Positions 901 through 61,862 of a DNA stretch of 64,000 nt are shown here, piece after piece. Source of the DNA: a virus; the UHGV virus genome UHGV-0248979; one strand, given 5' to 3'. The notes under the pieces were generated by a model. That model was not told where the DNA came from, ran no database searches, and worked only from the letters and a program-made list of their open reading frames with translations. Each line of letters opens with the position of its first letter. Within the stretch, counting starts at the first letter, position 1. A program made the translations under genes and the position numbers.

Positions 901-969
901 TTTAAACTCCATTAGATTAAACAAAAAAGAATAAGGATTAGGGGTGCTACATAAGCACCCCGTGAACTG

Positions 970-1113
970 TTAAATTTTGCAAGCCCCGCCTGAGCAGTTA
1001 TCGTCTTCCGTAGTTGGGTCAGCACCCTTCTCTACGGTTGCTTCTGGGTCTAAGCCAGGGATTGCAAATTCGTCAGTTTCTTTAACGGTTTCTACTTTAA
1101 CTTCTTCAGTCAT
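970..1113 (-). CDS. small acidic hypothetical protein (47 aa, ends CSGGACKI), not in ORF track
   Basis: Manual translation of minus strand fills the gap between flanking genes; weak RBS. Confidence 0.25.
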   Translation of the reverse strand: MTEEVKVETVKETDEFAIPGLDPEATVEKGADPTTEDDNCSGGACKI

Positions 1114-1155
1114 TTTAGTTCCCAAATTTCTTACAAAGGTGTTAGCAGTTTTGAT

Positions 1156-1338
1156 TTAACGATGGCGAATGTGAGACAGAAGCAGGCCCATCCGTAATGG
1201 AACTGTCGCTGTCATTGCCTTTTTATACTGCACAGTGCGTACTTTCGATTTACCAGGTCCCTTACGTACGCGGTTGTAGCCAATAAAATATAGAGTACCT
1301 GTAAAGAATCTGAGGTTATGAAAATATGGCTTCTTCAT
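1156..1338 (-). CDS. small basic hypothetical protein (60 aa)
   Basis: ORF with strong SD AAGGAGGA upstream of ATG; start overlaps upstream gene stop (ATGA). Confidence 0.5.
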   Translation of the reverse strand: MKKPYFHNLRFFTGTLYFIGYNRVRKGPGKSKVRTVQYKKAMTATVPLRMGLLLSHIRHR

Positions 1339-1508
1339 TGTTCCTCCTTCTCGAATGGGTTAGCTTCAAGGAACTTGGAATAAGAAAATTGAATTACTTG
1401 GAAACGTTTACGTCCTTTACGTGGCCCTTTGCACCAACGTGTAACAATGGTACGGAACTTCTTCGGCTCGAAATACGTTATCGTGAAATTAAGAACATCG
1501 TCCAACAT
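1335..1508 (-). CDS. small basic hypothetical protein (57 aa), not in ORF track
   Basis: Manual translation; TGA stop overlaps ATG of the 1156-1338 gene (ATGA coupling); SD-like GGGGA upstream. Confidence 0.35.
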   Translation of the reverse strand: MLDDVLNFTITYFEPKKFRTIVTRWCKGPRKGRKRFQVIQFSYSKFLEANPFEKEEQ

Positions 1509-1529
1509 ATCAATTCCCCACAGGTTACC

Positions 1530-2582: not shown

Positions 2583-2639
2583 TTCAATGTTCCTTTTAGT
2601 TTCGAGGTGGTTCAGATATAGATTGCATGTGAAACAACT

Positions 2640-10274: not shown

Positions 10275-10345
10275 AATTCACTCCTAAAGAATGTCTCACG
10301 TAGATAATATCTGTCTGACTTCTTTTTGAAATTGAGGTAGTAAGA

Positions 10346-19394: not shown

Positions 19395-19430
19395 TCTAAT
19401 AACTCCAATGGTGTTACACCTGGATAATAT

Positions 19431-20099
19431 CTATCTAAGAATATTTTTAATGAAAAAAGGATCGGCTGTAAACTCCTTCACTTGTGAGTCATAACCCGAA
19501 TGTATTTGATCGCTACTGAGCAAATACTGGTCTAGGTCGTGCGGAAGAATCCAAGAATCACCTTGCTTAAAAATACCATAATCTGCTGTTCCTGCGGAAA
19601 AAATGATTTCCTCTGGAAACGAATAGACACGGCGTAAGGCAAGATCGGATGGCTTTAACACGATTAATCGAACGGGATGTTGACTGACTGCCTCTTTAAT
19701 AAACTGTTCACGATTAAACCAAATTATTTTTTCGGGGTAAGTTTCGAATTCAGCCCATGCCCGCGTGATAACTAATTTGGAAATCTTTCTCAATTCTTCA
19801 GAACGCTCTGCGTAGCCGATGCACTCCTTGCGTACTTCATGATTTTCTATCGATGTTGTGAATTTTTGGAATAGGTGTTGTTGGAAAAAGCCGTTCTCCG
19901 GGATATCACAACCCGCGTTGTATAGTGCAATGATCTCCCACAACAACGAAAGAGAAAACACAAATGCTAACTTTTCCACAACTTCCCAATCTTCGGAGTA
20001 AGGGGCTTTAAAGCCCCAATACTGCCGTGCGTTATACATAAAGTGAGTTTGTAAAAACCGAGGGGCTTTTGACAAGACCTCACTATAAACGATCAGCAT
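19431..20099 (-). CDS. hypothetical protein (222 aa)
   Basis: ORF. Confidence 0.5.
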   Translation of the reverse strand: MLIVYSEVLSKAPRFLQTHFMYNARQYWGFKAPYSEDWEVVEKLAFVFSLSLLWEIIALYNAGCDIPENGFFQQHLFQKFTTSIENHEVRKECIGYAERSEELRKISKLVITRAWAEFETYPEKIIWFNREQFIKEAVSQHPVRLIVLKPSDLALRRVYSFPEEIIFSAGTADYGIFKQGDSWILPHDLDQYLLSSDQIHSGYDSQVKEFTADPFFIKNILR

Positions 20100-28829: not shown

Positions 28830-28929
28830 TTTGTTTCTCCAGTTGGATTTATACATTTCCGTATTCCGTAAGACGAAATGACGGCGCGGACAGCTAATAC
28901 TCCTTTGTTGTGTGCCCTAATGATAATAT

Positions 28930-29490
28930 CTATTTAAAAGAGTTTGGAATTAATGACTCTGCTTCTCGGTACAGCTTATCGGGTAAGTATAACGTGTAGT
29001 GTTGCCTCCTCGGTTCAAGTTTTTTGTAAAGCCACAAGAAGATTTCTTGCCTTTCCCAGGAATCTAACCACCCATTTGCCATTCCCAGTGGAGGGATAGC
29101 AACGCTGGTATCCAGTTCCTCAACACAATCTGCTAATGCGGTAATGCCCGCAGTAACATAAGAAACCTTGGACTTTAAACGCCAATGTGTTTTCGTGGGG
29201 AGCAAGATGCACTTTTCATCAGGGTAAACGTAAACACTTCCAATCTTGATTTCGTCTTCGCGACACCGCTTACGGTAATCTTGATAAAGGTTGGGGTAGC
29301 GTTCACGGCACGCCAGTGCAATACCGCGACCCATTGCTCCTACACAGTTAATGGTAACGACTTTATAGTCTTCGGGCGCATTAAAAAGATCGTTACCAAT
29401 TTTAGATTCTTTACGTACCGTTAACATAACGAATCGGCCATAGTTGATGTGTAGTATTAAAACGTGTACCGCCGATTGATAGCTCGACAA
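28930..29490 (-). CDS. macro domain protein, TARG1/DarG-like (ADP-ribose glycohydrolase family) (up to 186 aa)
   Basis: Motifs TINCVGAMGRGIALACRERYP, LLPTKTHWRLKS, SVAIPPLGMANGWLDSWE match the TARG1-type macro domain pattern; start uncertain (M1 or M22). Confidence 0.55.
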   Translation of the reverse strand: MSSYQSAVHVLILHINYGRFVMLTVRKESKIGNDLFNAPEDYKVVTINCVGAMGRGIALACRERYPNLYQDYRKRCREDEIKIGSVYVYPDEKCILLPTKTHWRLKSKVSYVTAGITALADCVEELDTSVAIPPLGMANGWLDSWERQEIFLWLYKKLEPRRQHYTLYLPDKLYREAESLIPNSFK

Positions 29491-30602: not shown

Positions 30603-30923
30603 ACCTTAGAGACGCAAAAAAGTAAAATTAAAACCAACGCGCGATGACGAATGCCGCTGCGGCTAATATGGCCGTGGTGATTATCAACCCACCCCATGAA
30701 AGTTCCGCATCGTATAATGCGGATATCGCTACATTCGTAGTGTTTATCGAGGTCATTTTCTGCTCCTAGTAATACCCTCACGCCGGAGGGTATTTTCCGG
30801 ATTATTTGGGTGTTTAGTCTTCAAACGCCCATCTGTGTTGTTTAACCAGCAAGTTTAAACCTTTACCGATTAACCACATCGCACCAAGTGTTAACAGAAC
30901 CCCTTCAACCATATTCCCTTCTC

Positions 30924-31103
30924 CTAATTCCGCCATTCGCATTCACGTTGACGCCAAATTGAACCCCATGATAGTTTAATCAGATAAGATGAAACTACCC
31001 ATAAAATCATCACCACGCAAAACATGACATAAAGAACCGCTAGAATGGACATGAAACCAAACCCCGCCGCGTCCATAAAACGACGGAACCAATCAGTTTG
31101 CAT
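30924..31103 (-). CDS. small membrane protein (59 aa)
   Basis: Hydrophobic core FGFMSILAVLYVMFCVVMILWVV; SD AAGGAG upstream of the ATG. Confidence 0.4.
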   Translation of the reverse strand: MQTDWFRRFMDAAGFGFMSILAVLYVMFCVVMILWVVSSYLIKLSWGSIWRQRECEWRN

Positions 31104-37546: not shown

Positions 37547-37571
37547 ACTGAACTCTCACCTAAGTAATATA
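37547..37571. promoter_or_regulatory. conserved 25-nt AT-rich element CACCTAAGTAATATATATCTGAAAT (copy 1), promoter-like
   Basis: Near-identical (24/25) to copy at 41946-41970; 39 nt upstream of the minus gene start at 37508. Confidence 0.4.
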
Positions 37572-37612
37572 TATCTGAAATTATTTTTAATGTTGACGAA
37601 CAAAAAATAAAA

Positions 37613-38227: not shown

Positions 38228-39001
38228 CTAATAATTAAGTTTTACATCGGCAATAAACAGCAACTGTTTACCGTGTTGCTGCACTTCTTTCCAACCTAGT
38301 TTCATAGCAGCGTCAACAACATCTATCATGCTGTAACGAGACATCAACGCGGTTGATTTTGTTCCTGACATTAAGTAAAGCGGCTCGTTGGGGCAACGGT
38401 CGCGTGCATCAGGAAGTTCCCGAGAGACTGCTGAGCCTTCGGGTACGGTAACAACATGAATCACGGTAAATGGTCTTTTGTGGGTTAAATAAATACGAAA
38501 CCCAACGTGTTCAGACTCATGAAAGACTTTCTTTACAACCACATCTTTTAGTGTCGTCTGAACATCAATCCCAGGTAATATCGTGGATTCGCGAGAAACA
38601 AAACAACGACTATTTTCAACCATGGAGAAATAATTACGTATCGGTAAACTGGCGTTATGATCGCGCAGTTTTTTGCTCAGTAGATCGAAGTTCAGTTCTT
38701 TAACTTTCTCTAGCCATTCTTTGGCTTGTTGTATGTAATAACTACCAACGGTGCGATAAGTCAATACCTTGCCTGTGCTTACTTTCCAAAGTTTAACGCT
38801 TAGTGAATTCGGCTTATAGCGACGATACTCACCCCGCGTATAGTTGATGCGCTCGTAACGCTCTACATCGTCAACGGGCGCAGATTCGATCGATTGTAAT
38901 TGCAACGTACGATCTAATCTATCGGCGAATAGTAGTGATGTTAGCGGACCTTCGATCAAATACGGTTCGGTTTTAAAGATATCATCTAGATGGATTTTCA
39001 T
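38228..39001 (-). CDS. hypothetical protein, GW...QLLF C-terminal motif family member 1 (257 aa)
   Basis: C-terminus LGWKEVQQHGKQLLFIADV shared with three neighbours. Confidence 0.55.
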   Translation of the reverse strand: MKIHLDDIFKTEPYLIEGPLTSLLFADRLDRTLQLQSIESAPVDDVERYERINYTRGEYRRYKPNSLSVKLWKVSTGKVLTYRTVGSYYIQQAKEWLEKVKELNFDLLSKKLRDHNASLPIRNYFSMVENSRCFVSRESTILPGIDVQTTLKDVVVKKVFHESEHVGFRIYLTHKRPFTVIHVVTVPEGSAVSRELPDARDRCPNEPLYLMSGTKSTALMSRYSMIDVVDAAMKLGWKEVQQHGKQLLFIADVKLNY

Positions 39002-39068: not shown

Positions 39069-40220
39069 TTAGAGGTCAGCAACAAACAACAGCTGGCAGC
39101 CGTACTTTTGTACGTCCGCCCAACCGTAGTCTTTTCCGATTATAGGTAGATGTAAAAAATCCAGCTTCTCGTCTTTCGCTTTTAGTTTCGCCATTAACGT
39201 ATTGGACTCCTCAGCACTGAGCAGTAATGCGGGCTCTTTTTCAGTACGTCCTTCTGCGGTTGGGAAGAAATTGTAATAGCTGCGAGTAGGTAAATCGACA
39301 GAAAAACTACGATTGCCTATTCTGGCGATGAACGCAACTCCTTCACAGTTAGCATCTACACTACACGACCATCCCGCCTCCGTTAAAAGGTCTTTTAACA
39401 GACACCACACTTTAAGTTGGTTCTTAGAAACTGTACGGTAAATAGCAAGATGTTCAGGAAGTAAATGTACGCCCATAACCACGTTTTCAGATTTCTCGTC
39501 AAGCAACTCTGGATGCTGTATCGGGAACAATAATTCAGTGATACCCACGTTATCAATTTTGTTAACAAAATCAGTTAATTCATCTTTTAAGGTACACACG
39601 GATTTTTCTCCTTTGTCTTCAATAATCAGGTGGGGTTCGCCGCTAATTAAAATGTGGTAAACGAGATCGTCAGTAGAACGGTAAGTGAGCTTGATTGCTT
39701 TATCACTTAATATTTCGTAGCGGAAGAAACTTTCGTACCAACTTGAGCCGAAATCGTTTTGTGTGAGTTCCTGCTCAACTTTGATGGTTTTTGCTTCAAA
39801 GCCGATTAACTCGCTTAATAACGCGAGTTCTTGTTTAGTTAAAATAGTTACACCGTGAAAGGGCACTTGTTCAAGCTGAAAACATAACTTAGTGACTTCA
39901 CCATTTGGGAAGACCTTAAACATAATCTTCCGGTTGCTACTCTTTTCCCTAACAACAAGTTTACGGTAATTTAGTCCACAATTTGTGTAAGACGTGAACT
40001 GGTAACCTTCAATTTCTTCATCGAAAGTACAGACATCGACAGGCGCGATAATCTCATTGTATTCACTAAGTACACAGCAGCCCAATTTATAACCAAACAA
40101 CGTATGTTGTAAAAAATAGTCGAGGGTTAAGCTTGGTAGTGGCCAAGCCCGATTATAGCATCTGTCCATCAGTTCTTTTAGGTACTTGGCATGTCTTGGT
40201 TTAGAAATAATATTTCGCAT
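39069..40220 (-). CDS. hypothetical protein, GW...QLLF family member 2 (383 aa)
   Basis: C-terminus YGWADVQKYGCQLLFVADL. Confidence 0.55.
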   Translation of the reverse strand: MRNIISKPRHAKYLKELMDRCYNRAWPLPSLTLDYFLQHTLFGYKLGCCVLSEYNEIIAPVDVCTFDEEIEGYQFTSYTNCGLNYRKLVVREKSSNRKIMFKVFPNGEVTKLCFQLEQVPFHGVTILTKQELALLSELIGFEAKTIKVEQELTQNDFGSSWYESFFRYEILSDKAIKLTYRSTDDLVYHILISGEPHLIIEDKGEKSVCTLKDELTDFVNKIDNVGITELLFPIQHPELLDEKSENVVMGVHLLPEHLAIYRTVSKNQLKVWCLLKDLLTEAGWSCSVDANCEGVAFIARIGNRSFSVDLPTRSYYNFFPTAEGRTEKEPALLLSAEESNTLMAKLKAKDEKLDFLHLPIIGKDYGWADVQKYGCQLLFVADL

Positions 40221-40252: not shown

Positions 40253-40807
40253 TTAAGCAGGGCAAGCTAAGAACAACAACTGCTGACCGATTTTACGTAC
40301 GGTATACCAACCGTGGGCTTTAGCGACCGCGATCAACGTTTCCCAGTCATCAACATCACATTGCTCGTTCCGAAGTTTTGTAAAGAGTGCTTCGGCTTCG
40401 TCTTGGTTTAATAACTTACCTGGATTATCAGGGGTGGTGCCAGAAGGGGTTGGAAAGAAATCGTATTGACGCGCTAAGAGAAAATCAACCAGATACTTGG
40501 TGTTCTCTTTATAAACCAGCGTGGAAGTCTTCCCTTCGTGGAAGAAGCTGCCTGTTTTCCAAACGCTATCTTTCAGTAAGCTCTGAAGGTAATCTGTAAA
40601 GCCCGTTCTAAATGGGATATGCGTTTTACGCGTGATGTTGCGACGCAGCGGGGTTTCCTCTACAGCTTGTACACTTACCCCTACTATCATCGCACCTGGC
40701 TGGATAATGGTATTGGTCAGTACGGTATAAGGACGGACAAAGAAATGTTCGCCTACGCCTTTTTCAAGGGTTTGGATAATTTCATTTTTCAGTTCAGTTT
40801 GAAACAT
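40253..40807 (-). CDS. hypothetical protein, GW...QLLF family member 3 (184 aa)
   Basis: C-terminus HGWYTVRKIGQQLLFLACPA. Confidence 0.55.
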   Translation of the reverse strand: MFQTELKNEIIQTLEKGVGEHFFVRPYTVLTNTIIQPGAMIVGVSVQAVEETPLRRNITRKTHIPFRTGFTDYLQSLLKDSVWKTGSFFHEGKTSTLVYKENTKYLVDFLLARQYDFFPTPSGTTPDNPGKLLNQDEAEALFTKLRNEQCDVDDWETLIAVAKAHGWYTVRKIGQQLLFLACPA

Positions 40808-40838: not shown

Positions 40839-41576
40839 TTACGCGGTTTTAATTAACAGCAGATAGTCCTTCGTAATCTCAGCACAACTCCACCCTCTCA
40901 TCGTGGCGATTTTACGAAGATCAATTTTCTCGTGATATTTCAATAAGGGATCGTCTGAGTTAATCTCAACCAGGTGGGTGGCTTTAGAAATCGTTTCCAC
41001 ATCTGGGATCTGTTTTGCTAAGTCGGATGCAATCAGTTCAATAACGCGGTAACCCTTTAACACAGAAACATAGATGCGCAAACCATATAGCGTGCCCTCG
41101 TCTTCTAATGGACAAAGATCGATGCCGGGTCCAAGCAGTGATAACTCGACGTTATCGGGAAGGTTTTCTGCATTTCGGAGTAACCCTATCCCATTTCTAA
41201 ACAGAGGGAAGTAAGAGAATAGTGGTGGTAAAGCCCAACCGTTCCCAATAAGCACATCATCGATACTAGTAGGCGTGTTCGCAAGAAGACGAATGTGGTC
41301 AGCCACAACTTCAAGTTCGGCATCACTGATCAACTTATAGATTAACATGACACTGGTTTCGGTATTAATAACGAAGAAGACGCGGTTGGCGTAACTGCCT
41401 ATCACGTATTCGTCAATCATACAGTCGATAACGTCAGTGTCTGGATAATCTTCAGGTTTAATTGTTCCAGCATCGATTAACTTAGCAGGTTGCGATTGTT
41501 TTAATAGTTCGTTAACAACAGTAGAAGAAAGTTCTAAACTGGTGTTAGTAAAGATATCGTCTAATAATTCTCTCAT
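40839..41576 (-). CDS. hypothetical protein, divergent GW...LLL family member 4 (245 aa)
   Basis: C-terminus RGWSCAEITKDYLLLIKTA. Confidence 0.5.
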   Translation of the reverse strand: MRELLDDIFTNTSLELSSTVVNELLKQSQPAKLIDAGTIKPEDYPDTDVIDCMIDEYVIGSYANRVFFVINTETSVMLIYKLISDAELEVVADHIRLLANTPTSIDDVLIGNGWALPPLFSYFPLFRNGIGLLRNAENLPDNVELSLLGPGIDLCPLEDEGTLYGLRIYVSVLKGYRVIELIASDLAKQIPDVETISKATHLVEINSDDPLLKYHEKIDLRKIATMRGWSCAEITKDYLLLIKTA

Positions 41577-41945
41577 GATTTACTCGCTAATCTCAATAAA
41601 GGGAAGTCTATTATTATGGATTGTAAAAGAGGTATAAGGAAGTCACTACGTTCCTCTGGGAAGAGTATGTCGGTATACTACGTATACCTCCGCTATTTAT
41701 ATCCGTATACATAATGCCCCCTACCCCCTACCGGTATCCCGAGTAGCAGAATAAAGGGACAGACTGTAAAATTTTAGTACCTGTTATCGGAAGGTACTAA
41801 ATGGAGTGTAGTCTTTAAGCCGTTTGTGCAGCTCATTGAGACTTTCTTTTTTTAGTAGACATGATCTGTCTCCCCAAATGGTTTAATCAATCCGTTTCGA
41901 ATGAAACGTGTCCGTAGGGGCTGAACTGGCACTTCAGTCCCTATT

Positions 41946-41970
41946 CACTTAAGTAATATATATCTGAAAT
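41946..41970 (+). promoter_or_regulatory. conserved 25-nt AT-rich element CACTTAAGTAATATATATCTGAAAT (copy 2), candidate promoter for the virion gene block
   Basis: 26 nt upstream of the ATG at 41996; contains TATATAT -10-like core. Confidence 0.4.
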
Positions 41971-41995
41971 CAATTCCGATCTAAGGAACGTCCCG

Positions 41996-42961
41996 ATGGA
42001 GAAATCCAGTGTTGATTTTTTCTCAATTGGTATCGTCGCGGAAGACAAACCCCGTGGTACAGATCGGGTAAAAGTGATACCAATTGAAACTAATTTTGCT
42101 AACCCTACCGTGGTGCAATCTGTTTCTTCAGCAACTGAAAAGACACATGAAACATCTGGTGCAACAGATAACCTAACCATTAAGACGGGTAACACGATAA
42201 CAGCAAAGTGGTGGAAGTTTAACTCCAACCGAATTAATTCCCCTGACGTTAAACGAGAAGATTACGTTATCTTGTTACGTTTGGGGAAAACCGATATTTA
42301 TTTTTGGATTGATCTGAACTTCGCTAACGTTAAGCGATTAGAGGATGCGGTTTACGCGTGGTCTGCTGACCCTGAAAACCAGATGGCGGATGACCTGTCC
42401 AATGCGTATGTGTTGAATATCTCGACGATTGACAAACATATCACGCTAAGAACAAGTATGGTGAACGGTGAGAAAGCGGCGTGGTTATTTCAGTTTGATA
42501 ATGCAAATGGCACGTGGCAGTGTGTTGACCACAAAGGGAATAAGTATTACATTAACTCGGTGGAAGACGATTTAGGTTTTGAGAATGCGATGCTCTCAAA
42601 AGTGAACATCAACAAAGAAGATGCGTTCATTTATTCAAAGCGTTCTATTAACCTGGAAACGAAAACGATTAATGAAAAATGCGAAGTTCGCAATACGGAA
42701 GCAGCGAAATCCGTTACGTTTAAAACACAAACCTGGTTAACGGAAGCAGGGAGTTCGACAACATTTAAAACGCCGAACTTTAAACAAGAAGGGAATGAAG
42801 CGATGTTCACCGGTAATCTGGAAATCGCTAAGAACTTCAAATACGGTGGTACGGGCAAAGGCGTCGGTGTCTTTACGGTTAAAGATGCGGTTATTTCTGG
42901 CATTACCTTTAGCGTTCACATTCACCAAGGTAAACATGGCCCGACATCACCTCCACAGTAA
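41996..42961 (+). CDS. hypothetical protein, likely virion/baseplate-associated (321 aa)
   Basis: First gene of plus-strand block, SD AAGGA; no motif recognised. Confidence 0.5.
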   Translation: MEKSSVDFFSIGIVAEDKPRGTDRVKVIPIETNFANPTVVQSVSSATEKTHETSGATDNLTIKTGNTITAKWWKFNSNRINSPDVKREDYVILLRLGKTDIYFWIDLNFANVKRLEDAVYAWSADPENQMADDLSNAYVLNISTIDKHITLRTSMVNGEKAAWLFQFDNANGTWQCVDHKGNKYYINSVEDDLGFENAMLSKVNINKEDAFIYSKRSINLETKTINEKCEVRNTEAAKSVTFKTQTWLTEAGSSTTFKTPNFKQEGNEAMFTGNLEIAKNFKYGGTGKGVGVFTVKDAVISGITFSVHIHQGKHGPTSPPQ

Positions 42962-43167: not shown

Positions 43168-43377
43168 ATGTCTATTAAAGAGTTCTCTTCTGCTGAGCAT
43201 ATTCCAGAAGAGTTTAAGAAAATCGGTAACGTTAGCGCTTTCGGCGATACCGTTGATCATGTAACTGGTAAACTGGCTGCTGAAGCCGAAAAAATTGGCG
43301 GCGACGCATTCAAAGTTATCGGTATTTCCGGCAACAACAAACTGCACGGTAACGCGATTGTCTACAAAAAAGACTAA
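43168..43377 (+). CDS. DUF1471 (YdgH/BhsA/McbA-like) domain small protein lacking a signal peptide (69 aa)
   Basis: Pattern EF...G.VS...DTVDHVTGKLAAEAEKIGGDAFKVIGISGNNKLHGNAIVYKK matches the BhsA-family fold signature; SD GGAG. Confidence 0.6.
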   Translation: MSIKEFSSAEHIPEEFKKIGNVSAFGDTVDHVTGKLAAEAEKIGGDAFKVIGISGNNKLHGNAIVYKKD

Positions 43378-43396
43378 GCGAAAAAAAAACGTGCTA

Positions 43397-43421
43397 CTCC
43401 TACCCTCTAAGAGGGTAGGAG
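43397..43421. terminator. bidirectional terminator hairpin CTCCTACCCTC-TAA-GAGGGTAGGAG
   Basis: 11-bp stem; A9 upstream, T7 downstream; between convergent genes. Confidence 0.7.
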
Positions 43422-43427
43422 GTTACT

Positions 43428-44690
43428 TTATTTTTTTCGTGCTCTAAAGCGATGCATTTCTAAATACACTTTTTCCCAGGGACCGAATGGACCAACGATT
43501 GCTTGAGCATCGTTAATCTTCTTCTGATTATACCACCGGGCTTCACGAAAGACGTAGTTTTGACTGTCGAATTCGGTGGTGTTAAATACCCACTCACCTT
43601 CCTCCCACGTAGGCCAATAACCTACCGTCTTTCCAAATCGATTATTTAAGTACCCTAATGGTTTTTCAGAATCAGGATCGGTGGGGTCCTTGAGATAACA
43701 ACGTCCCCAAACTGCGTTATGCGAAACACCCACAACTTCTTCTTCTAAATACGGATTATCTACCGTAAAGATAAAAGAGGATTCGTGCAGTAAAAGCGCT
43801 TTCAGTGTTTCAGGGTTACGAATACGTTGAACGTTGGTAGGCGATGATAAATCCCCCACACCGATGCTATCCCAGTCGTAATAACGTCGGGTCTCCAGAA
43901 CGGTCCGTGCAAGATCAAAATTCGGTAAAGAAATCATGATCGCACGGTCAGAGAAATAACCGTCCGGTGGCAACCAACGTAGCAATCCGCCTATGACGAA
44001 ACCCACGGTTTTCCCCGTAATAGACTCAGGCAGCGATATCATTAACGTGGAGTAATAGTCGCGTGTAGTGTCGAGCTTGTTTAGCGTAAGGTTGGCGATT
44101 GGATAGGTTTTAACATTCCCTAGCTGACCAAAAACCATACAGCCAATATCTGGCGTACATGCTCTCCGTACGATTTTACCGGCCCCAGGCAATCGCACAC
44201 CTACGGTATCCGTCTGGTGTGGTACCCATTGACCGTTAATGTTGTACAGCACACTATTACGGTATTTGTCTTTCCACTTGTCCTCACAAACGACGACAAC
44301 GTCATCAGCATCGTCTAAGCTGAAATCTTGACTGTGATGGTACCCTGGTGGACACAGATATGTTTCGACAGGTACATCGGCATTAATTGATTGGTAATGT
44401 GCCCAACTGAATTCCAGTTTCGGCAATCCGGTCTTTAGAGTGGGAATGACGTTTCCGGCTTTTTCGTTTAACCAATCTTGTAAAGTGTCTGTTCGGTTTT
44501 GTAGTTCGGCAAGATGGTATTGACTGACTAACGTATAGTCTTTACCAAGTGCACTTAAACCGATCTCAAAGGTGTGGTAGTCTGAACACAACGTAGTTAA
44601 AGGTTGCGTGACATCGATGGCTCCCCAGGTACGGGACTCTCGAGAGAAGCCAAAAGCGCTGTCGGGTCGCACTTGATAAGCAGTAGTCAC
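43428..44690 (-). CDS. hypothetical protein (420 aa)
   Basis: Long minus ORF divergent from tail fiber genes. Confidence 0.55.
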   Translation of the reverse strand: MTTAYQVRPDSAFGFSRESRTWGAIDVTQPLTTLCSDYHTFEIGLSALGKDYTLVSQYHLAELQNRTDTLQDWLNEKAGNVIPTLKTGLPKLEFSWAHYQSINADVPVETYLCPPGYHHSQDFSLDDADDVVVVCEDKWKDKYRNSVLYNINGQWVPHQTDTVGVRLPGAGKIVRRACTPDIGCMVFGQLGNVKTYPIANLTLNKLDTTRDYYSTLMISLPESITGKTVGFVIGGLLRWLPPDGYFSDRAIMISLPNFDLARTVLETRRYYDWDSIGVGDLSSPTNVQRIRNPETLKALLLHESSFIFTVDNPYLEEEVVGVSHNAVWGRCYLKDPTDPDSEKPLGYLNNRFGKTVGYWPTWEEGEWVFNTTEFDSQNYVFREARWYNQKKINDAQAIVGPFGPWEKVYLEMHRFRARKK

Positions 44691-44759
44691 AGCTCTTTTT
44701 CCTCTATAGATTCAAGTCATAGTATGAACTTCGACGCCCACGGACTATAGGAGTAGATA

Positions 44760-47700
44760 ATGGCTGTCGTCTTAGACCCACACTTCAAAAAACCGGGGAA
44801 TAAAATAACCGGTGAAGCGGTCGCCGTCATTGGTACGAAATACCGAATGTTGGTACCTGCCCACGCCCCTTTTTTCACCACATCCCTGGTGGTCAAGAGC
44901 GGCGGCAAAATACTGACCTTAGGCGACGATTACGTTATTACACACCCGTACGAGACTGGTATGTTGCGCACAGCCTATCTCATTCACGGGATGATTTGGA
45001 TTGTTAATGACAAATACAAATCGAACTTTACTGTAGATTACCATGCCGTTGGTTGTGGTGAAGCAACCCAAGAGCAGATTACCGCAGAGCGCGAGCTTAA
45101 TAAAGGTAAATACCCCTCCGCGTGTCAGTGGGACACCGTCATCGGAGACGTTTACTTTCCACCGGTCGATATCCAGTTCGATTGGGAGAATTGGAAAGGT
45201 GAACTGGAGCTAATGCAGGCCATTGCTGGGGTAGGCGATTCGTTAGGGGAAGTCGTGAGTCGTCTTAACCCAATCGCACGCAATACACTGGATTTGGAAT
45301 ATCGTGCTAATAGCAAGGTTATCACTTCCGAGCAGTATGCTGCGTACGATAATAAAGGCGGTTTCACCTACAACACAGCTCGCCACCGTTATAGCCTGAG
45401 TTATAAAGCGACAACCTTTAACAACTATTCCCTGTCGGTGAAACACAGAATTCCTGCTATTCTGCCGGACATGACAAAGTTGAATCCGAACGAGCAGATC
45501 GATTGGATGCTCTGTTATGCCAACGGTGGTGCAAGCATTCTACGGTTGCAGCTAAAACAGCGCAAAATCTCACTGGTCTTAACTGTCGCTATTGGAAGCG
45601 GTTCATCAAACTACGATTATACTTTAATCAACGGTTTAACTGACGATGAGTTAAAAAACGATATCGATTTTAGTGTAACCCGACAACCCGGAAACGGCGT
45701 TTACGTAATCGTAGTAAAAACAAATAAACAGACCATGGATTATACGTTCAACGTCGATACGCCACCTGATGAGTTCTCGGCAGGGTATTCGAAAACGGAT
45801 GTAGCCAAATGGTTGAAGTCTAAAACGAACATTAACCTGAACTGGTATGCGGCTGAAAACGATAATGTTCAAATTCGTTCTTTACCCGGTGCGCCGGAGC
45901 CTGACGTTGATAACGATGTTTACCAGTTAATAGTTAAGTATCATCAGTTGGTTGAGCAGCTGTATCGTAATGCGCCTGCGCACGAACACGTTACACGTAA
46001 GGACAACCCACACACAGATACGTGGGGTCCGATCCGTGCGTTAGAGTTGAACGGTATTGCGTCGGATGCAGCATTAGCTTACGGAAAAACGAAGCCGCAG
46101 TTAACGGATTATGTTAATGCTAAGTATCCAACACAAGCGACGCTGACAGCACAAAAGAAACTATTGCGCACGTCAGCTACGAAAACGGCTAACGGAACTA
46201 TTGGAACGCTGCCCGGTTTTACTTCGTTCACGACGGAAGTTGACCCGGTGTCAATGTCGAAATACGTGAGTCCTCGTTTTAGCGAAAGCTACGTTAGTAA
46301 TGGTCACAGGTATCACGGTGCGCTTCGTTACACAGGAACGAAGAGTGGATTCGCCACTTCTTTTAATGCGGTACCTGCTAACCTGCAAGATATTGACTTT
46401 ATTGTTACCGGACGTAAAACAGCGTCTGGTAATGAAGCTGTCGGTACGGTTAGCCTACGTTTCTATCAGAAACCTGGTACTAACTCTGGAAAATTTATCC
46501 AGCTTACAGGTGAAATTTCTGCGGGTAAAGTCGGCGTTAAGTTGGAACTGAACGGTTTTTCGAATCCCACACCGGAAGTTCAGTATCTTTCCCAAGCTCC
46601 TAATCCAGCAATACCGGATGGGGATTTTACGCTGCGTTTTCAACTGAAACGCACAGGGAACGTGTTTGATGTCGTTATTACCATAAACGGCAAGACATAC
46701 AGTGCACGTGTTAACTTCACTAACATGGACGCTGCACTAGAAGCATTGGAGAATAGCCACCACTTTAAATCATTGATCAGTAATGTTGCTGACAATGTCA
46801 CTATTAGCTCGGGGAATAAAGGTAACACGGTTACCATTAAGAAAGCGCCCGACGTCGTTGACGGGACCCGTTTAGGTGCCCAGTTTGTCGTTGACCCGAA
46901 ATCCATTAAGTTTATTGGACAAGGTTCAACCGAGGTTAATGCGGGGAATAACCCTGTAACGTTTCAAGCAGGTACTAACCAACTTATATTGTATCCTGAT
47001 GATCGTGGGTTACAGTGGCGTGGTAAGAAACTCTTAGACCCCACTACCGTGGCTCCGTATCTGCCAGGCAATACCGCGGGCGGTACGGGATTATTCTACG
47101 GTACATCTACAACCACGGTAGAACTTACCGGTAGCGGGATAAAAGCATCGCCGTTCGTAGCGACTTTTATTCTCCCTACCGCGACTGATACAACAGCCCT
47201 GGCAGCTTGGCAGTTGACCGATGAGTTTGGTACCGCTGAAAACCTTGCAGCAACGCCAGCACTGATTGAAAAACTCGATGCGGAGTTCACCGGTAAATTA
47301 GTTGCGGTTAAATCGTACATTAACGACATGCAACTTACCAGCTCGGTCACTATCGACAAAATTACCTTTGGTTTAGGTAACGTTGCGAATACACCCGATG
47401 TCAATTTACCGATTTCTACAGCACAACGTGCGGAGTTAGATAAATACTCGCCTAAAGTTCACCAACACCCGTTTACCGCTTTTGGTACTGGGAACGCAAC
47501 CACAGCGAAACGTGGTCTGATTAAATTTGGTCTGGATGTGGATGATGCGACTTTAGCACTCGATGGGAGTGTGGTAATGGCGCAGACTTCCCAGATTGAA
47601 AAATTGGAAAATGCTGTCGGTGGCGTTGACTCGGGTGCTCGCGTTGACATTATTCGTTTCGGCAAGTCTGGTGACGACTTAATTAACGTTACGGTTAAAG

Positions 47701-49082
47701 ACAAAATTCTGGCTATGCTCCCCGCTTCAACGTACTTTGTTGGTGGTGAGACGTATGACGTACCGTTAATGTCGGTTAACGTCACTGAACGTTTCCCGAA
47801 TCCGAAAACGTTGATCTACGCAGGAATTTTTGTTGATATTGTTGACAACAAAGCGAAGTATGTTATCCACGACAGCTACAATCAGGCTGAAACGGATACC
47901 ATGACGCGCGTGGGAAGACTCGTTGTCAATGAGCTTTCCGAAGTGGACGTAGTGGAATTGCGTAACGTGACACGATTAGGCGAATTCCACGAGCTGAAAG
48001 ACCACATCGCTAATGACAACGCACACATTCAACGTTCTGCTTCGCGTGCAGTATTGGGGTTAAGTGATTTAACAGTAGGTGCACCTTGCTGGGCTTCTGG
48101 ACTCCAGGCAGTAGTGCGTGGTGAAGCAGATTGGCGTTATGTTGTTCGTGGACAGTATAAAGCCTTAGACGGGGTGAAATACGACCAGATCGCATCAAAG
48201 TGGATTTTCGATGCGAAAGGGGTAAGTGACAACGTTCACGGGTTTATTCACAACTTATTCCCGACTTTCAAAAACGCAGGAATGCGGGTAAGTTGGGAAA
48301 CAGAAAGCAACGCAAAAACCGGAACAGTGTTAGAAACTGTTTTAGGTTGTTGGAAGAACACCGACGGCGAGTTTATGCGGTTGTCATTACTTATCACTCG
48401 CGGTTATCGTTTAACTGACAGTAACGGTGAATATTGTTACGCAGGGTTCGGTTTGAACTTCGGTAGCGGGAAATCGGTAGTGGTAGGTTTCACACCAACG
48501 AAGCGTGTTACGCCTGCACCGTGGAGTTCATTACGACCTGACGTAACGTTTACCCACACCCGTGGTGCAAACAACGCAATAACGTTTAATGCATCGCTGA
48601 CTTTAGCTGGCACTGTGTATACTATCGTGGTGTTTTTATCCGCGACAGATAAATACGTAAGCTGTACGGCGGCAGGGGGAACTACGCAGAAAATCCCATT
48701 AGCCGACCGTTTAACCGGGTTCAATATCGAACCTATCGTTAATGATCCGTATACCCCTATTTACTACGGTTTAGGGGGACTTTATGAGGATGAGGTTCGT
48801 GCCAACATCCGCTCTACAGCAGACAGCGCAACTGCGAACAAAGTCTACGGTACGTTGTTGGACTATGTTAGCAACTATTCCTCATTAAATCGAGTACGCG
48901 TCATGGAATTGTCCGGTGTCAGCTCAGACCCCGAAACGCTTAATGCGTTAGTGGCAACTGAATTTAATAACAACCTGGCAGATTACGCTGCGTTACCGAT
49001 ACCTCCTTATCTTAACAAGGAGCGCGTAATGTCGTTTATCGACACCGACAATAAAGTGCAGGCGGTAATCATTCGCGATTAA
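44760..49082 (+). CDS. tail fiber-like / receptor-binding protein 1 (1440 aa)
   Basis: Giant Thr/Gly/Ser/Asn/Val-rich ORF, SD AGGAG; N-terminal domain shared with the next three genes. Confidence 0.55.
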   Translation: MAVVLDPHFKKPGNKITGEAVAVIGTKYRMLVPAHAPFFTTSLVVKSGGKILTLGDDYVITHPYETGMLRTAYLIHGMIWIVNDKYKSNFTVDYHAVGCGEATQEQITAERELNKGKYPSACQWDTVIGDVYFPPVDIQFDWENWKGELELMQAIAGVGDSLGEVVSRLNPIARNTLDLEYRANSKVITSEQYAAYDNKGGFTYNTARHRYSLSYKATTFNNYSLSVKHRIPAILPDMTKLNPNEQIDWMLCYANGGASILRLQLKQRKISLVLTVAIGSGSSNYDYTLINGLTDDELKNDIDFSVTRQPGNGVYVIVVKTNKQTMDYTFNVDTPPDEFSAGYSKTDVAKWLKSKTNINLNWYAAENDNVQIRSLPGAPEPDVDNDVYQLIVKYHQLVEQLYRNAPAHEHVTRKDNPHTDTWGPIRALELNGIASDAALAYGKTKPQLTDYVNAKYPTQATLTAQKKLLRTSATKTANGTIGTLPGFTSFTTEVDPVSMSKYVSPRFSESYVSNGHRYHGALRYTGTKSGFATSFNAVPANLQDIDFIVTGRKTASGNEAVGTVSLRFYQKPGTNSGKFIQLTGEISAGKVGVKLELNGFSNPTPEVQYLSQAPNPAIPDGDFTLRFQLKRTGNVFDVVITINGKTYSARVNFTNMDAALEALENSHHFKSLISNVADNVTISSGNKGNTVTIKKAPDVVDGTRLGAQFVVDPKSIKFIGQGSTEVNAGNNPVTFQAGTNQLILYPDDRGLQWRGKKLLDPTTVAPYLPGNTAGGTGLFYGTSTTTVELTGSGIKASPFVATFILPTATDTTALAAWQLTDEFGTAENLAATPALIEKLDAEFTGKLVAVKSYINDMQLTSSVTIDKITFGLGNVANTPDVNLPISTAQRAELDKYSPKVHQHPFTAFGTGNATTAKRGLIKFGLDVDDATLALDGSVVMAQTSQIEKLENAVGGVDSGARVDIIRFGKSGDDLINVTVKDKILAMLPASTYFVGGETYDVPLMSVNVTERFPNPKTLIYAGIFVDIVDNKAKYVIHDSYNQAETDTMTRVGRLVVNELSEVDVVELRNVTRLGEFHELKDHIANDNAHIQRSASRAVLGLSDLTVGAPCWASGLQAVVRGEADWRYVVRGQYKALDGVKYDQIASKWIFDAKGVSDNVHGFIHNLFPTFKNAGMRVSWETESNAKTGTVLETVLGCWKNTDGEFMRLSLLITRGYRLTDSNGEYCYAGFGLNFGSGKSVVVGFTPTKRVTPAPWSSLRPDVTFTHTRGANNAITFNASLTLAGTVYTIVVFLSATDKYVSCTAAGGTTQKIPLADRLTGFNIEPIVNDPYTPIYYGLGGLYEDEVRANIRSTADSATANKVYGTLLDYVSNYSSLNRVRVMELSGVSSDPETLNALVATEFNNNLADYAALPIPPYLNKERVMSFIDTDNKVQAVIIRD

Positions 49083-61652: not shown

Positions 61653-61862
61653 ATGATAAGTCTTAAAAACATACGCGACAGATTAGTAACGGCGGAGGGA
61701 TATATCACCACCGCTAATGCAAACAACTATATTGCAAACCAAGGAACGGTTTCCTCAACCAACAATCTCGCAGGATTACCTTTAAGTCATTATAATTGTA
61801 ATGGCGGATGTAGTTGGTCGTGCAGCGGTAGCTGTAGTAAGGGGGCGGGGGGGGGTAAGTAA
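61653..61862 (+). CDS. cysteine-rich leader+short-core protein 3 (69 aa as read); likely continues into next frame via G-tract slippage
   Basis: Leader ISLKNIRDRL..., HYNCNGGCSWSCSGSCS, terminates right after G5CG9 tract. Confidence 0.5.
   Translation: MISLKNIRDRLVTAEGYITTANANNYIANQGTVSSTNNLAGLPLSHYNCNGGCSWSCSGSCSKGAGGGK
61841..61855 (+). repeat. G5-C-G9 homopolymeric tract (slippage/frameshift-prone)
   Basis: GGGGGCGGGGGGGGG seen directly; removing one G joins the peptide-3 frame to the downstream 61863-62319 frame. Confidence 0.9.

What the first reader, a model, noticed from the sequence alone, without database searches (positions are those of the whole stretch)
41577..41995. Largest intergenic region is a divergent junction with three GTATAC palindromes and a CCCCCTA direct repeat
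The 419-nt gap separates the minus-strand block from the plus-strand virion block. It contains three copies of the palindromic hexamer GTATAC within about 40 nt (41673-41710), an adjacent CCCCCTACCCCCTACC direct repeat (41717-41732), a hairpin near 41776-41800 and the 25-nt element just before the first virion gene. Such clustered palindromes at a divergent junction suggest operator sites for a dimeric regulator, a replication origin, or a transcriptional switch.
Basis: seen in the sequence. Interest (0 to 1): 0.45.

Follow-up and report, generated by a model that had tools for sequence, protein, structure and literature searches.

The report
Jumbo-phage divergent promoter–terminator junction
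The flagged gap is the transcription-control junction of an SPN3US/phiEaH2-like giant phage: the "palindromes" are the two arms of a conserved RNA hairpin, the C-rich repeat is a conserved single-copy box, and the 25-nt element is an early promoter pointing away from the virion gene, so the region is interesting but is not an operator cluster or a demonstrated origin.

Summary
Three GTATAC within 38 nt is unlikely by chance (P about 4e-4).

The window is a jumbo phage related to Erwinia phiEaH2 and Salmonella SPN3US. Comparison with about 25 syntenic junctions changes how the motifs read.

- **GTATAC 1 and 2** are the arms of a 7-bp hairpin. Its sequence differs in ten lineages but its pairing is kept. 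It is flanked by conserved boxes (AAGGAWGTC / TCCG).
- **The CCCCCTA repeat** is a conserved C5-N2-3-C4-5 box, present once per genome.
- **This module (41626-41745)** is the best-conserved part of the junction in the window's own clade.
- **The 26-nt element** is one of 22 copies of an early-type promoter motif. Every copy is co-oriented with leftward genes, so this one fires away from the baseplate gene.
- **Next to that promoter** are a covarying 5' hairpin and a decaying 25-codon micro-ORF.
- **The canonical baseplate late promoter** (A-tract + TATG) is degenerate in the window.

Best reading (about 0.5): in the leftward RNA the module is a structured leader with a phiKZ-type terminator/attenuator. 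Closely spaced operators and a replication origin are not supported. Direction and function still need transcript mapping.

The parts
41634..41656 (-). Upstream copy of box A (ATAAGGAAGTC) with its own stem-loop AGGAA/TTCCT. This is a duplicated unit of the module, shared with Erskinevirus (phiEaH2).
   Evidence: In leftward sense it is followed by UAUACCUCUUUUAC. GAGGTATA (41629-36) is also complementary to TATACCTC (41683-90) (I11).
41663..41671 (.). Box A. It reads GAGTATGTC here and AAGGAWGTC in other genera. In this clade it contains AGTATG, which resembles the late-promoter core.
41672..41688 (-). Conserved hairpin GGTATAC-tac-GTATACC, formed by GTATAC copies 1 and 2. Strand inferred as leftward.
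   Evidence: Ten covarying stem variants. In the tool count 96.6% of cells are paired and 1/500 shuffles reach the score. The covariance model finds one hit in the window, 49 bits. dG -7.4 (+) / -9.2 (-).
41689..41694 (.). Box B, TCCGCT, conserved on the 3' (+ sense) flank of the hairpin.
41705..41716 (.). Third GTATAC, lying inside a semi-conserved box (TAYACAYAGAT-like) that precedes the C-box.
   Evidence: It is a palindrome only in the window clade and in L147.
41717..41732 (.). C-box (C5-N2-3-C4-5), read as a G-box in leftward RNA. Single copy per genome.
   Evidence: The spacing to the A-tract is 35-37 nt in 12/15 relatives and 37 nt here.
41708..41768 (-). Predicted long interrupted hairpin in the leftward RNA, in which the G-box pairs with CCCUUUAUUCU.
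   Evidence: dG -27.9, z -3.9 in minus sense against -14.3, z -1.75 in plus sense.
41764..41782 (+). Canonical position of the baseplate late promoter: A-tract CTGTAAAA followed by a degenerate core TTTAGTACCT. Relatives L004-6 have TACTATGA here.
   Evidence: TA[GAC]TATG[AT] is a real promoter-like motif elsewhere in the window.
41773..41801 (-). 10-bp hairpin at the 3' end of the micro-ORF. In leftward sense it is followed by AAUUUUACAG...CCCUUUAUUC.
   Evidence: A hairpin of different sequence sits at this position in clade relatives.
41786..41863 (-). Leftward micro-ORF remnant. It is 25 codons if the A-run were A6. The window has A7, which gives MSTKKRKSQ* (ORF 41833-41862).
   Evidence: Intact homologues read MSTEKKSGLDEVIELFKRYNPAIPR and MFAEQKDGIEEVVRLFRHYSPYLPR. 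The run is A5 in L175, and the ORF is deleted in four relatives.
41893..41908 (-). Small hairpin CGTTTC-gaat-GAAACG. The stem is kept in clade relatives while the loop varies.
41914..41943 (-). 12-bp covarying hairpin directly downstream of the leftward promoter, read as the 5' stem-loop of the early transcript. The wobble pairs favour the + sense.
   Evidence: Stem variants. dG -16.7 (+) / -12.2 (-).
41945..41970 (-). Early-type (virion-RNA-polymerase-type) promoter, leftward: ATTTCAGATATATATTACTTAAGTGA.
   Evidence: The promoter class is inferred from the review PMC7598289.
41982..41998 (+). Shine-Dalgarno sequence (TAAGGAAC) and start codon of the baseplate assembly protein gene.

Best explanation
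The gap is the divergent transcription-control junction of an SPN3US/phiEaH2-like jumbo phage. It has three layers.

**1. A conserved module (41626-41745).** It is conserved across the family and present once per genome. It consists of box A, a variable hairpin, box B and the C-box.
- I infer that it acts in the leftward (minus-sense) RNA as a structured leader.
- That leader ends in a phiKZ-type intrinsic terminator/attenuator, made of a stem, a short spacer and a UUUAUUCUU-type tail.
- The G-rich box forms one arm of a further upstream hairpin.

**2. A clade-specific leftward cassette (41773-41970).** It consists of an early promoter of the virion-RNA-polymerase type, a 5' stem-loop, and a small ORF that is decaying.

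**3. The baseplate gene's own rightward late promoter.** It should be an A-tract plus TATG. At its canonical position in this window it is degenerate.

**Proposed working.**
- Early leftward transcription starts just left of 41946.
- It crosses the micro-ORF and the G-box hairpin and meets the stem-loops at 41688-41636.
- Part of it stops there as a short structured RNA. Part reads through into the 245-aa gene and the leftward block.
- The baseplate gene is transcribed rightward late, through the same DNA.

**Shown:** the anatomy, conservation, covariation, single-copy status and promoter orientation.
**Inferred:** the strand of action, termination, and the temporal classes.
For: **Identity of the phage and synteny:**

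**Hairpin.**
- Ten stem variants preserve pairing.
- The tool count gives 96.6% of cells paired, three pairs changed on both sides, and 1/500 shuffles reaching the score.
- The spacings between box A and box B, and between box B and the C-box, vary. That argues against recognition on double-stranded DNA.

**Copy number and conservation.**
- One copy in each of 10 jumbo contigs and one in the 64-kb window.
- 41626-41745 is 95-99% identical within the clade. Its flanks are 58-69% and coding DNA about 90-95%.

**Evidence for the leftward sense.**
- The 20 nt after the hairpin hold a mean of 8.5 U in minus sense against 5.8 in plus sense, with at least 9 U in 9 of 13 lineages.
- The conserved AAGAATAAAGG reads CCUUUAUUCUU in minus sense. 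This resembles the tails of this phage's own terminators. It also fits the stem + TTAT motif of phiKZ terminators (PMC10914365).
- Further leftward terminator-like hairpins follow the module in L011, L013 and SNUABM_8.
- The G-box is paired in minus-sense folds (P 0.74-0.95 in 9/14 lineages). The C-box in plus sense reaches only 0.09-0.48.
- Mean z is -1.6 in minus sense and -0.6 in plus sense. The window scores -3.9.

**A leftward promoter sits upstream.** There are 22 motif copies, all co-oriented with leftward genes.

**Precedent.** Terminators inside phiKZ 5' UTRs yield short RNAs, e.g. T102 and T131.
Against: - The window's own GTATAC hairpin is followed by a U-poor leftward tail (4 U in 20). 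The same is true of phiEaH2 and STsAS.
- In relatives with the standard layout, no leftward promoter was found between the baseplate start codon and the module. What would be terminated there is unknown.
- All stem pairs are Watson-Crick, so the hairpin itself does not reveal its strand.
- The neighbouring hairpin 41914-41943 has G.U pairs only in the plus sense in two variants.
- Minus-sense z-scores are not significant in about half of the lineages. G-rich strands also fold better in general.
- The conserved GTC/TCCG flanks and the 4-nt bulge go beyond what a plain terminator needs.
- No transcript data exist for this phage group.
Confidence: 0.5

Rival explanations
1. The module acts in the rightward sense and belongs to the baseplate gene. 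Either it is an upstream promoter element (the C-box at a fixed distance from the A-tract), or it is the 5' leader of a long baseplate mRNA. In the second case transcription would start at the AGTATG inside box A (41664-41669), and the hairpin would serve as a 5'-terminal stabiliser.
For: - The module is always next to the baseplate gene and in the same orientation to it, while the leftward neighbours differ.
- The C-box to A-tract spacing is 35-37 nt in 12/15 relatives and 37 nt in the window.
- The window clade's box A reads gAGTATGt. This is 7 of 8 matches to the late motif TA[GAC]TATG[AT]. That motif occurs only three times in the window, always 27-33 nt upstream of a start codon.
- The window has lost TATG at the canonical site, so a rightward promoter must lie somewhere upstream.
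- Hairpin 41914-41943 has G.U pairs only in the plus sense.
Against: - Box A is AAGGAWGTC in all other genera, with G instead of the T at -3. That T is strictly required in phiKZ (PMC7598289).
- Relatives L004-6 keep both GAGTATGTC and an intact canonical TACTATGA, so box A did not change to compensate for a lost promoter.
- The C-box is mostly unpaired and the plus-sense folds are near random.
- The A-rich stretch before the hairpin and the absence of a U-tract after it fit a leftward terminator better.
- The more distant relative L189 has the late promoter without the module.
Confidence: 0.22
2. The module is a DNA-level element. It could be operators for a dimeric regulator, or a replication origin, R-loop site or packaging site that uses an extruded hairpin and the G/C-rich tract.
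For: - It is single copy per genome, strongly conserved and located at a divergent junction.
- Inverted repeats are present.
- A G5-N3-G5 tract in a leftward transcript could favour an R-loop. This comes from my own knowledge of ColE1 and mitochondrial origins and was not tested.
- The cumulative GC-skew minimum lies near 38-42 kb.
Against: - The arms of the inverted repeat change sequence, length (2-7 bp) and spacing (3-11 nt) between close relatives.
- The distances between boxes vary.
- There are no iterons and no AT-rich unwinding block. The only direct repeat is 7 nt twice.
- The skew minimum is broad and coincides with the switch of coding strand.
- No recognisable DNA-binding regulator is encoded next to the module.
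Confidence: 0.1
3. The module is a protein-binding RNA element rather than a terminator. It would be a stem, a 4-nt bulge and a stem, flanked by GGA...UCC. Candidates are a nut/put-like antitermination site for the many terminators of the leftward block, or a site for a host or phage RNA-binding protein. Box A, AAGGAUGU, resembles Shine-Dalgarno and CsrA-type GGA motifs.
For: - The flanks AAGGAWGTC and TCCG, and a conserved 4-nt bulge, are more conserved than the stem.
- The unit is duplicated in tandem in phiEaH2 and in the window clade.
- The leftward block holds many intrinsic terminators that are directly followed by genes, which implies regulated read-through.
Against: - No partner protein is known.
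- The GGA of box A is lost in the window's second unit.
- There is no match to any Rfam family.
- The resemblance to CsrA and nut sites comes from memory and was not tested.
Confidence: 0.15

Closest known systems
phiKZ terminators inside 5' UTRs that give short leader RNAs (T102 upstream of PHIKZ221, T131 upstream of PHIKZ302; Putzeys et al. 2024, PMC10914365)
   Same: - A promoter is followed within a few hundred nt by a stem-loop with a TTAT-type tail, upstream of the first gene.
- The element is conserved among related phages.
- It occurs in a jumbo phage that uses its own RNA polymerases.
   Different: - Here no 5' or 3' ends have been measured.
- The stem is AT-rich, unlike the C/G-rich phiKZ consensus stem.
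- The window's own tail is U-poor.
- The predicted leader (about 250-320 nt) also carries a micro-ORF remnant and a conserved G-rich box.
Early promoters of phiKZ-related jumbo phages, recognised by the virion RNA polymerase (PMC7598289, PMC8244752)
   Same: - An AT-rich, highly conserved core of about 10 nt.
- Many copies per genome, upstream of co-oriented early operons.
- The motif differs between phage groups but is found in each of them.
   Different: - The motif here is AGATATATATTACYTAGGTG, not the phiKZ sequence.
- The class is assigned by analogy only.
- This copy sits 25 nt from the start codon of a late gene and points away from it.
phiKZ late promoters recognised by the non-virion RNA polymerase (T-3 A T G+1)
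   Same: TA[GAC]TATG[AT] lies 27-33 nt upstream of three genes in the window. It also lies 14-22 nt (from the G of TATG) upstream of the baseplate gene in relatives.
   Different: - In this window the canonical baseplate site reads TAGTACCT, so TATG is lost.
- An A-tract (GTAAAAAAG) accompanies some of these promoters. This has not been reported for phiKZ.
Lambda nut sites (boxA plus boxB hairpin)
   Same: - A conserved linear box lies next to a hairpin whose stem covaries between related phages.
- It sits at the head of a long terminator-rich transcription block.
   Different: - There is no sequence similarity.
- No N- or Nus-type factors are known for these polymerases.
- It is single copy.
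- This is an analogy of layout only, drawn from my own knowledge.

Membership tests
Intrinsic terminator (phiKZ type: stem-loop + TTAT/U-rich tail) | A stable stem-loop kept by compensatory changes | tested here: met
   Ten stem variants; 96.6% of cells paired, 1/500 shuffles reach the score. z -2.5/-3.3.
Intrinsic terminator (phiKZ type: stem-loop + TTAT/U-rich tail) | A U-rich / YTTATKYY tail directly 3' of the stem on the transcribed strand | tested here: inconclusive
   Leftward tails hold at least 9 U in 20 nt, with CCUUUAUUCUU, in 9/13 lineages. The window's own hairpin has 4 U in 20. The second unit is followed by UAUACCUCUUUUAC.
Intrinsic terminator (phiKZ type: stem-loop + TTAT/U-rich tail) | A co-oriented promoter or transcription unit upstream | tested here: inconclusive
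   Met in the window clade by the early promoter at 41945-41970. No leftward promoter was recognised in relatives with the standard layout.
Intrinsic terminator (phiKZ type: stem-loop + TTAT/U-rich tail) | RNA 3' ends at the tail | not testable with these tools
   No transcript data. Literature searches found none for this phage group.
Jumbo-phage early (virion RNA polymerase) promoter | A conserved AT-rich core repeated upstream of co-oriented operons | tested here: met
   Four strong copies in the window, all on the minus strand (0.57 expected). 22 copies in the window plus relatives, all co-oriented with the downstream gene.
Jumbo-phage early (virion RNA polymerase) promoter | Transcription start about 10 nt downstream of the core, early in infection, independent of protein synthesis | not testable with these tools
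   Needs dRNA-seq or primer extension.
phiKZ-type late promoter (TATG at the start site) | TATG core at the canonical baseplate position, after the A-tract | tested here: not met
   The window reads CTGTAAAATTTTAGTACCT. Relatives L004-6 read ...TAATACTATGA.
phiKZ-type late promoter (TATG at the start site) | An alternative TATG-type site in the gap | tested here: inconclusive
   gAGTATGt at 41664-41671, 327 nt upstream of the start codon. Whether it is used is unknown.
Operator array for a dimeric DNA-binding regulator | Palindrome sequence conserved in relatives, with fixed half-site spacing | tested here: not met
   The arm sequence, arm length (2-7 bp) and spacer (3-11 nt) all vary. The third GTATAC is absent in most relatives.
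Operator array for a dimeric DNA-binding regulator | A cognate regulator encoded nearby | tested here: not met
   The flanking proteins have no Pfam or PHROG DNA-binding assignment. Absence of a hit is weak evidence.
Replication origin | Iterons or initiator boxes plus an AT-rich unwinding element | tested here: not met
   Only short two-copy repeats. GC content is 29-49% with no distinct AT block.
Replication origin | A skew inflection that is independent of gene orientation | tested here: inconclusive
   The cumulative skew minimum at about 38-42 kb coincides with the strand switch.
Any Rfam RNA family | A covariance-model match | tested here: not met
   No hit at gathering score in the window. 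Nothing relevant at E up to 10 in 41000-42500.

The most novel reading that the evidence does not exclude
The module could encode a previously undescribed, single-copy, conserved structured non-coding RNA of SPN3US/phiEaH2/Derbicus-like jumbo phages. It would be about 100-150 nt in the standard layout and longer here.
- It would be transcribed leftward, from beside the baseplate late promoter.
- It would carry an invariant GGGGG-N2-3-GGGGG box and a terminator hairpin with conserved flanks.
- It would act as a regulatory RNA or protein-binding leader at the boundary between early and late genes, not merely as a terminator.
Probability: 0.25. Interest if true: 0.6.

Novelty: new member of a known kind. 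Interest (0 to 1): 0.4.

Why it matters
- Gene regulation in phiKZ-related jumbo phages that use two phage-encoded RNA polymerases has been mapped only in phiKZ, AR9 and phiR1-37. My searches found nothing for the SPN3US/Erwinia group.
- This junction yields working motifs for the early and late promoters of that group.
- It also yields a conserved non-coding element, present once per genome and supported by covariation, across at least five genera whose baseplate proteins are only 42-75% identical to the window's.
- If the leftward leader/attenuator reading holds, it extends the premature-termination leader RNAs seen in phiKZ to another clade. It would also give a concrete candidate for a regulatory RNA.
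- If that reading fails, the element is still a defined target for mutagenesis in SPN3US, which has genetic tools.
- For annotation, the result is a warning. Clustered palindromes can be hairpin arms, and a promoter-like element next to a gene may serve the opposite strand.

Tried and rejected
- **Lost gene in the gap.** Relatives have a 105-aa gene here (gp096/gp092). I tested whether the gap hides a degraded copy. tblastn found no trace in the window.
- **Known RNAs.** Rfam and tRNA scans found nothing.
- **Host-type signals.** The sigma-70 promoter and simple terminator scan of the gap gave nothing beyond chance.
- **First collection scan.** I replaced it with a tighter pattern.
- **Consensus fold of the whole leader.** RNAalifold in plus sense returned only the hairpin.
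- **Box A as a general promoter motif.** Rejected: AAGGAWGTC is not enriched in the window.
- **CGTAAAAAAG-N3-TARTATGA as a repeated motif.** Not found elsewhere in the window.
- **An alignment error of mine.** I first aligned the window's GAAACGT (41903) with the relatives' A-tract box. I corrected this: the true counterpart is CTGTAAAA at 41764-41771, which has the same 37-nt spacing from the C-box.
- **'Compensating promoter' idea.** I supposed box A gained TATG because the canonical promoter was lost. This is weakened, because relatives with an intact canonical promoter have the same box A.
- **Small ORFs across the module, on either strand.** They are not conserved, and box A has ATG only in some lineages.
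- **G-quadruplex, K-turn, N4-type promoter hairpin, CsrA site.** I considered each from memory. None fits all lineages and none was tested.
- **Adjacent proteins.** Pfam and PHROG searches gave no regulator.

Full report
**1. What the window is**

- The gene to the right of the gap (41996-42961, +) is a baseplate assembly protein (PHROG 3216, E 9e-114).
- It is 72% identical to Erwinia phage phiEaH2 gp095 and 62% to Salmonella phage SPN3US gp093.
- The next genes to the right are syntenic with those phages.
- The window therefore comes from a jumbo phage of about 220-225 kb in the phiKZ-related group.
- Near-identical contigs exist in IMG/VR and in metagenomes.
- According to the literature, such phages transcribe early genes with a virion RNA polymerase from AT-rich promoters. 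They transcribe late genes with a second polymerase from promoters whose only consensus is TATG at the start site (PMC7598289).

**2. Checking the observation**

- GTATAC is not enriched in the window as a whole: 17 copies against 15 expected.
- Three copies within 38 nt has P about 4e-4 under random placement.
- Two of the three are the arms of one inverted repeat, GGTATAC-tac-GTATACC (41672-41688), so they are not independent.
- 'Largest intergenic region' is doubtful, because two other stretches hold only short ORFs.

**3. The hairpin and its conserved boxes**

I lined up the syntenic junctions from cultured phages and uncultured contigs. The cultured phages came from five genera: Erskinevirus, Seoulvirus, Machinavirus, Wellingtonvirus and Derbicusvirus.

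All of them share one architecture upstream of the baseplate gene:
- box A (AAGGAWGTC);
- a hairpin;
- box B (TCCG, usually TCCGCT);
- a spacer of 10-37 nt that ends in a TAYACAYAGAT-like box;
- a C-box (C5-N2-3-C4-5);
- about 36 nt of variable sequence;
- an A-tract (CGTAAAAAAG);
- TA[GAC]TATG[AT];
- the Shine-Dalgarno sequence and the start codon.

The hairpin sequence is different in each lineage, but it always pairs from the base outward.

| Lineage | 5' arm / 3' arm |
|---|---|
| window | GGTATAC / GTATACC |
| SPN3US | GGTATCC / GGATACC |
| pEa_SNUABM_29 | GGTACCC / GGGTACC |
| STsAS | GGTACTC / GAGTACC |
| phiEaH2 | GGTGAC / GTCACC |
| L183 | GGTAGC / GCTACC |
| L009, L011, L013 | GGAG / CTCC |
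| L147 | GGAT / ATCC |
| Kwan | GTCT / AGAC |
| Derbicus, Phobos | GC / GC |

- On the six long-stem sequences, 96.6% of cells pair, three pairs change on both sides, and only 1 of 500 shuffles reaches the observed score.
- The stem length (2-7 bp), the loop (3-11 nt) and the distances between boxes all vary.
- A protein reading a duplex palindrome is therefore unlikely. A hairpin in a single strand is the natural reading.
- The third GTATAC lies in the semi-conserved box before the C-box. It is a palindrome only in this clade and in one other contig.

**4. Copy number and constraint**

- A pattern scan of IMG/VR found exactly one copy in each of ten jumbo-phage contigs. The remaining hits were GC-rich chance matches.
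- A covariance model of box A, the hairpin and box B finds one site in the 64-kb window (49 bits). The next best site scores 9 bits.
- Within the window's own clade, 41626-41745 is 95-99% identical. That is more than the flanking coding DNA (about 90-95%).
- The two sides of the module, 41566-41625 and 41776-41895, are only 58-69% identical.
- A more distant relative (L189, 54% baseplate identity) lacks the module altogether.

**5. The '25-nt element' is a leftward promoter**

- Its consensus is AGAYADATDTYAYYWNNGTG.
- It has four strong copies in the window, all on the minus strand and all just upstream of minus-strand genes. About 0.6 would be expected by chance.
- The window and relatives together hold 22 copies, every one co-oriented with the downstream gene.
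- The copy at 37557 follows a canonical leftward terminator and precedes a leftward gene.
- By analogy with phiKZ, AR9 and phiR1-37, I call it an early, virion-polymerase-type promoter. This is an inference.
- In the junction it points away from the baseplate gene.

It is followed by several features:
- A 12-bp hairpin at 41914-41943. Its stem covaries within the clade: GGGACTGAA, GGGGCTGAA, GGAGCTGAA and GGGGTTGAA.
- A small hairpin at 41893-41908.
- A Shine-Dalgarno sequence and a micro-ORF.

The micro-ORF varies across the clade:
- It is 25 codons in seven relatives. Two diverged versions have the same length, MSTEKKSGLDEVIELFKRYNPAIPR and MFAEQKDGIEEVVRLFRHYSPYLPR. This argues that it was a real gene.
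- In the window and L012 an A7 run breaks the frame.
- L175 has A5.
- Four relatives have deleted the ORF.
- The cassette is therefore dispensable and decaying.

**6. The baseplate late promoter**

- TA[GAC]TATG[AT] occurs only three times in the window. All three copies are intergenic and lie 27-33 nt upstream of a same-strand start codon (14343 +, 44720 +, 44717 -).
- Relatives carry it 14-22 nt before the baseplate start codon, measured from the G of TATG.
- In the window clade the A-tract counterpart is CTGTAAAA (41764-41771). It is 37 nt from the C-box, as in other genera.
- L004-6 keep TACTATGA after that A-tract. The window, L012 and L003 read TAGTACCT or TAGTAACC.
- The leftward cassette therefore lies inside what was the baseplate 5' UTR, and the window's canonical late core is degenerate.
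- The only other TATG on the plus strand that the clade conserves is gAGTATGt inside box A (41664-41671).
- Which site drives the baseplate gene in this phage remains open.

**7. Which strand does the module serve?**

Evidence for the leftward RNA:
- The conserved A-rich stretch before box A reads CCUUUAUUCUU(UUUAAC) in leftward sense.
- This resembles the tails of this phage's own terminators. Examples are UAAUCCUUAUUCUUUUUUG, UAACUUUAUUUUUAACC and GUUACUUUAUUUUUUU.
- It also fits the stem + TTAT motif reported for phiKZ terminators.
- The leftward tails hold a mean of 8.5 U in 20 nt, against 5.8 for the rightward tails.
- Several relatives carry one or two more leftward terminator-like hairpins directly after the module.
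- The G-box is base-paired in leftward folds (P 0.74-0.95 in 9/14 lineages). The C-box in rightward folds reaches only 0.09-0.48.
- Fold z-scores average -1.6 leftward and -0.6 rightward. The window scores -3.9 for a hairpin spanning 41768 to 41708.
- In this clade an early promoter lies upstream in the correct orientation.
- phiKZ provides a precedent: 42 phage terminators lie inside 5' UTRs and yield short RNAs together with read-through mRNAs.

Evidence against:
- The window's own hairpin has a U-poor leftward tail.
- No leftward promoter is recognisable in relatives with the standard layout.
- The hairpin has no G.U pairs that would fix its strand.
- The neighbouring 12-bp hairpin has wobble pairs only in the plus sense in two variants.
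- Half of the lineages have non-significant z-scores.

**8. Verdict**

- **Solid:** the anatomy, conservation, covariation, single-copy status and promoter orientations.
- **Best-supported function (about 0.5):** a leftward structured leader with a terminator/attenuator. This remains an inference.
- **Rightward role for the baseplate gene:** about 0.2.
- **Protein-binding RNA element:** about 0.15.
- **DNA-level origin or operator:** about 0.1.
- These readings are not fully exclusive of one another.
- My literature searches found no description of this element or of promoters in this phage group.

Noticed in passing
window 41786-41863 (-); relatives L004-6, L175-L181, L187: A 25-codon leftward micro-ORF with its own Shine-Dalgarno sequence. 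It is conserved in length in two diverged versions. In the window and L012 it is frameshifted by an A7 run. L175 has A5, which opens a 28-codon alternative frame. Four relatives have deleted it. This could be real homopolymer variation, transcriptional slippage or assembly error.
   Followed up: partly
window 44717-44727: Two overlapping late-type promoter cores on opposite strands (TAGTATGA on + and TACTATGA on -) lie in the 69-nt gap between the divergent genes 43428-44690 (-) and 44760-49082 (+). Each is about 30 nt from its start codon.
   Followed up: partly
window 43378-43435: A bidirectional terminator between convergent genes: A9, an 11-bp stem CTCCTACCCTC/GAGGGTAGGAG, then GTTACTTTATTTTTTT. 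Like other terminators of this phage, it has a short spacer between the stem and the U-tract.
   Followed up: partly
window 10297-10316, 19417-19436, 37557-37576 (all -); weaker 28915-28931 (-): Further copies of the early-type promoter motif, spaced roughly 9 kb apart along the leftward block. Each lies 23-50 nt upstream of a leftward start codon.
   Followed up: partly
window 38228-39001, 39069-40220, 40253-40807 (all -): The leftward genes next to the junction share a C-terminal domain with SPN3US gp091 and phiEaH2 gp097 (PHROGs 26772, 33648, 24489). They form a paralogous, variable gene family of unknown function. This side of the junction differs between related phages.
   Followed up: partly
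window 12400-39050 (-), several sites, e.g. upstream of 34287, 34820, 39001, 26019, 27558, 22350, 17032: Many leftward genes are preceded by a strong intrinsic terminator, followed within 10-30 nt by the Shine-Dalgarno sequence, with no recognisable promoter. This implies leaky termination or an unknown promoter class.
   Followed up: no
window 42023-42034 and 42076-42087: A perfect 12-nt inverted repeat, TCAATTGGTATC / GATACCAATTGA, with arms 41 nt apart. It lies inside the first 90 nt of the baseplate coding sequence.
   Followed up: no
window 43168-43377 (+): A 69-aa YdgH/BhsA/McbA-like (DUF1471) protein, Pfam PF07338, E 1e-9. It is encoded between virion genes and conserved in relatives.
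   Followed up: no
window 925-1529 and 30603-31092: Two stretches of about 605 and 490 nt that hold only short ORFs. Both are larger than the flagged gap. No tRNA or Rfam hit was found in either.
   Followed up: no
window 61841-61854 (-): A C-rich run, CCCCCCCCGCCCCC, on the minus strand inside a + strand gene. It is the only other match to the C5-N2-4-C4 pattern in the window.
   Followed up: no
L001 3506-3823, L002 3473-3790 (relatives): phiEaH2, SPN3US and STsAS have a 105-aa leftward gene directly next to the module. It has no homologue in the window (tblastn) and no Pfam family.
   Followed up: partly
window 2615-2626 (+): A partial early-motif-like sequence (GATATAGATTGC) in the opposite orientation, between two leftward genes. 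It could be chance or an antisense start.
   Followed up: no
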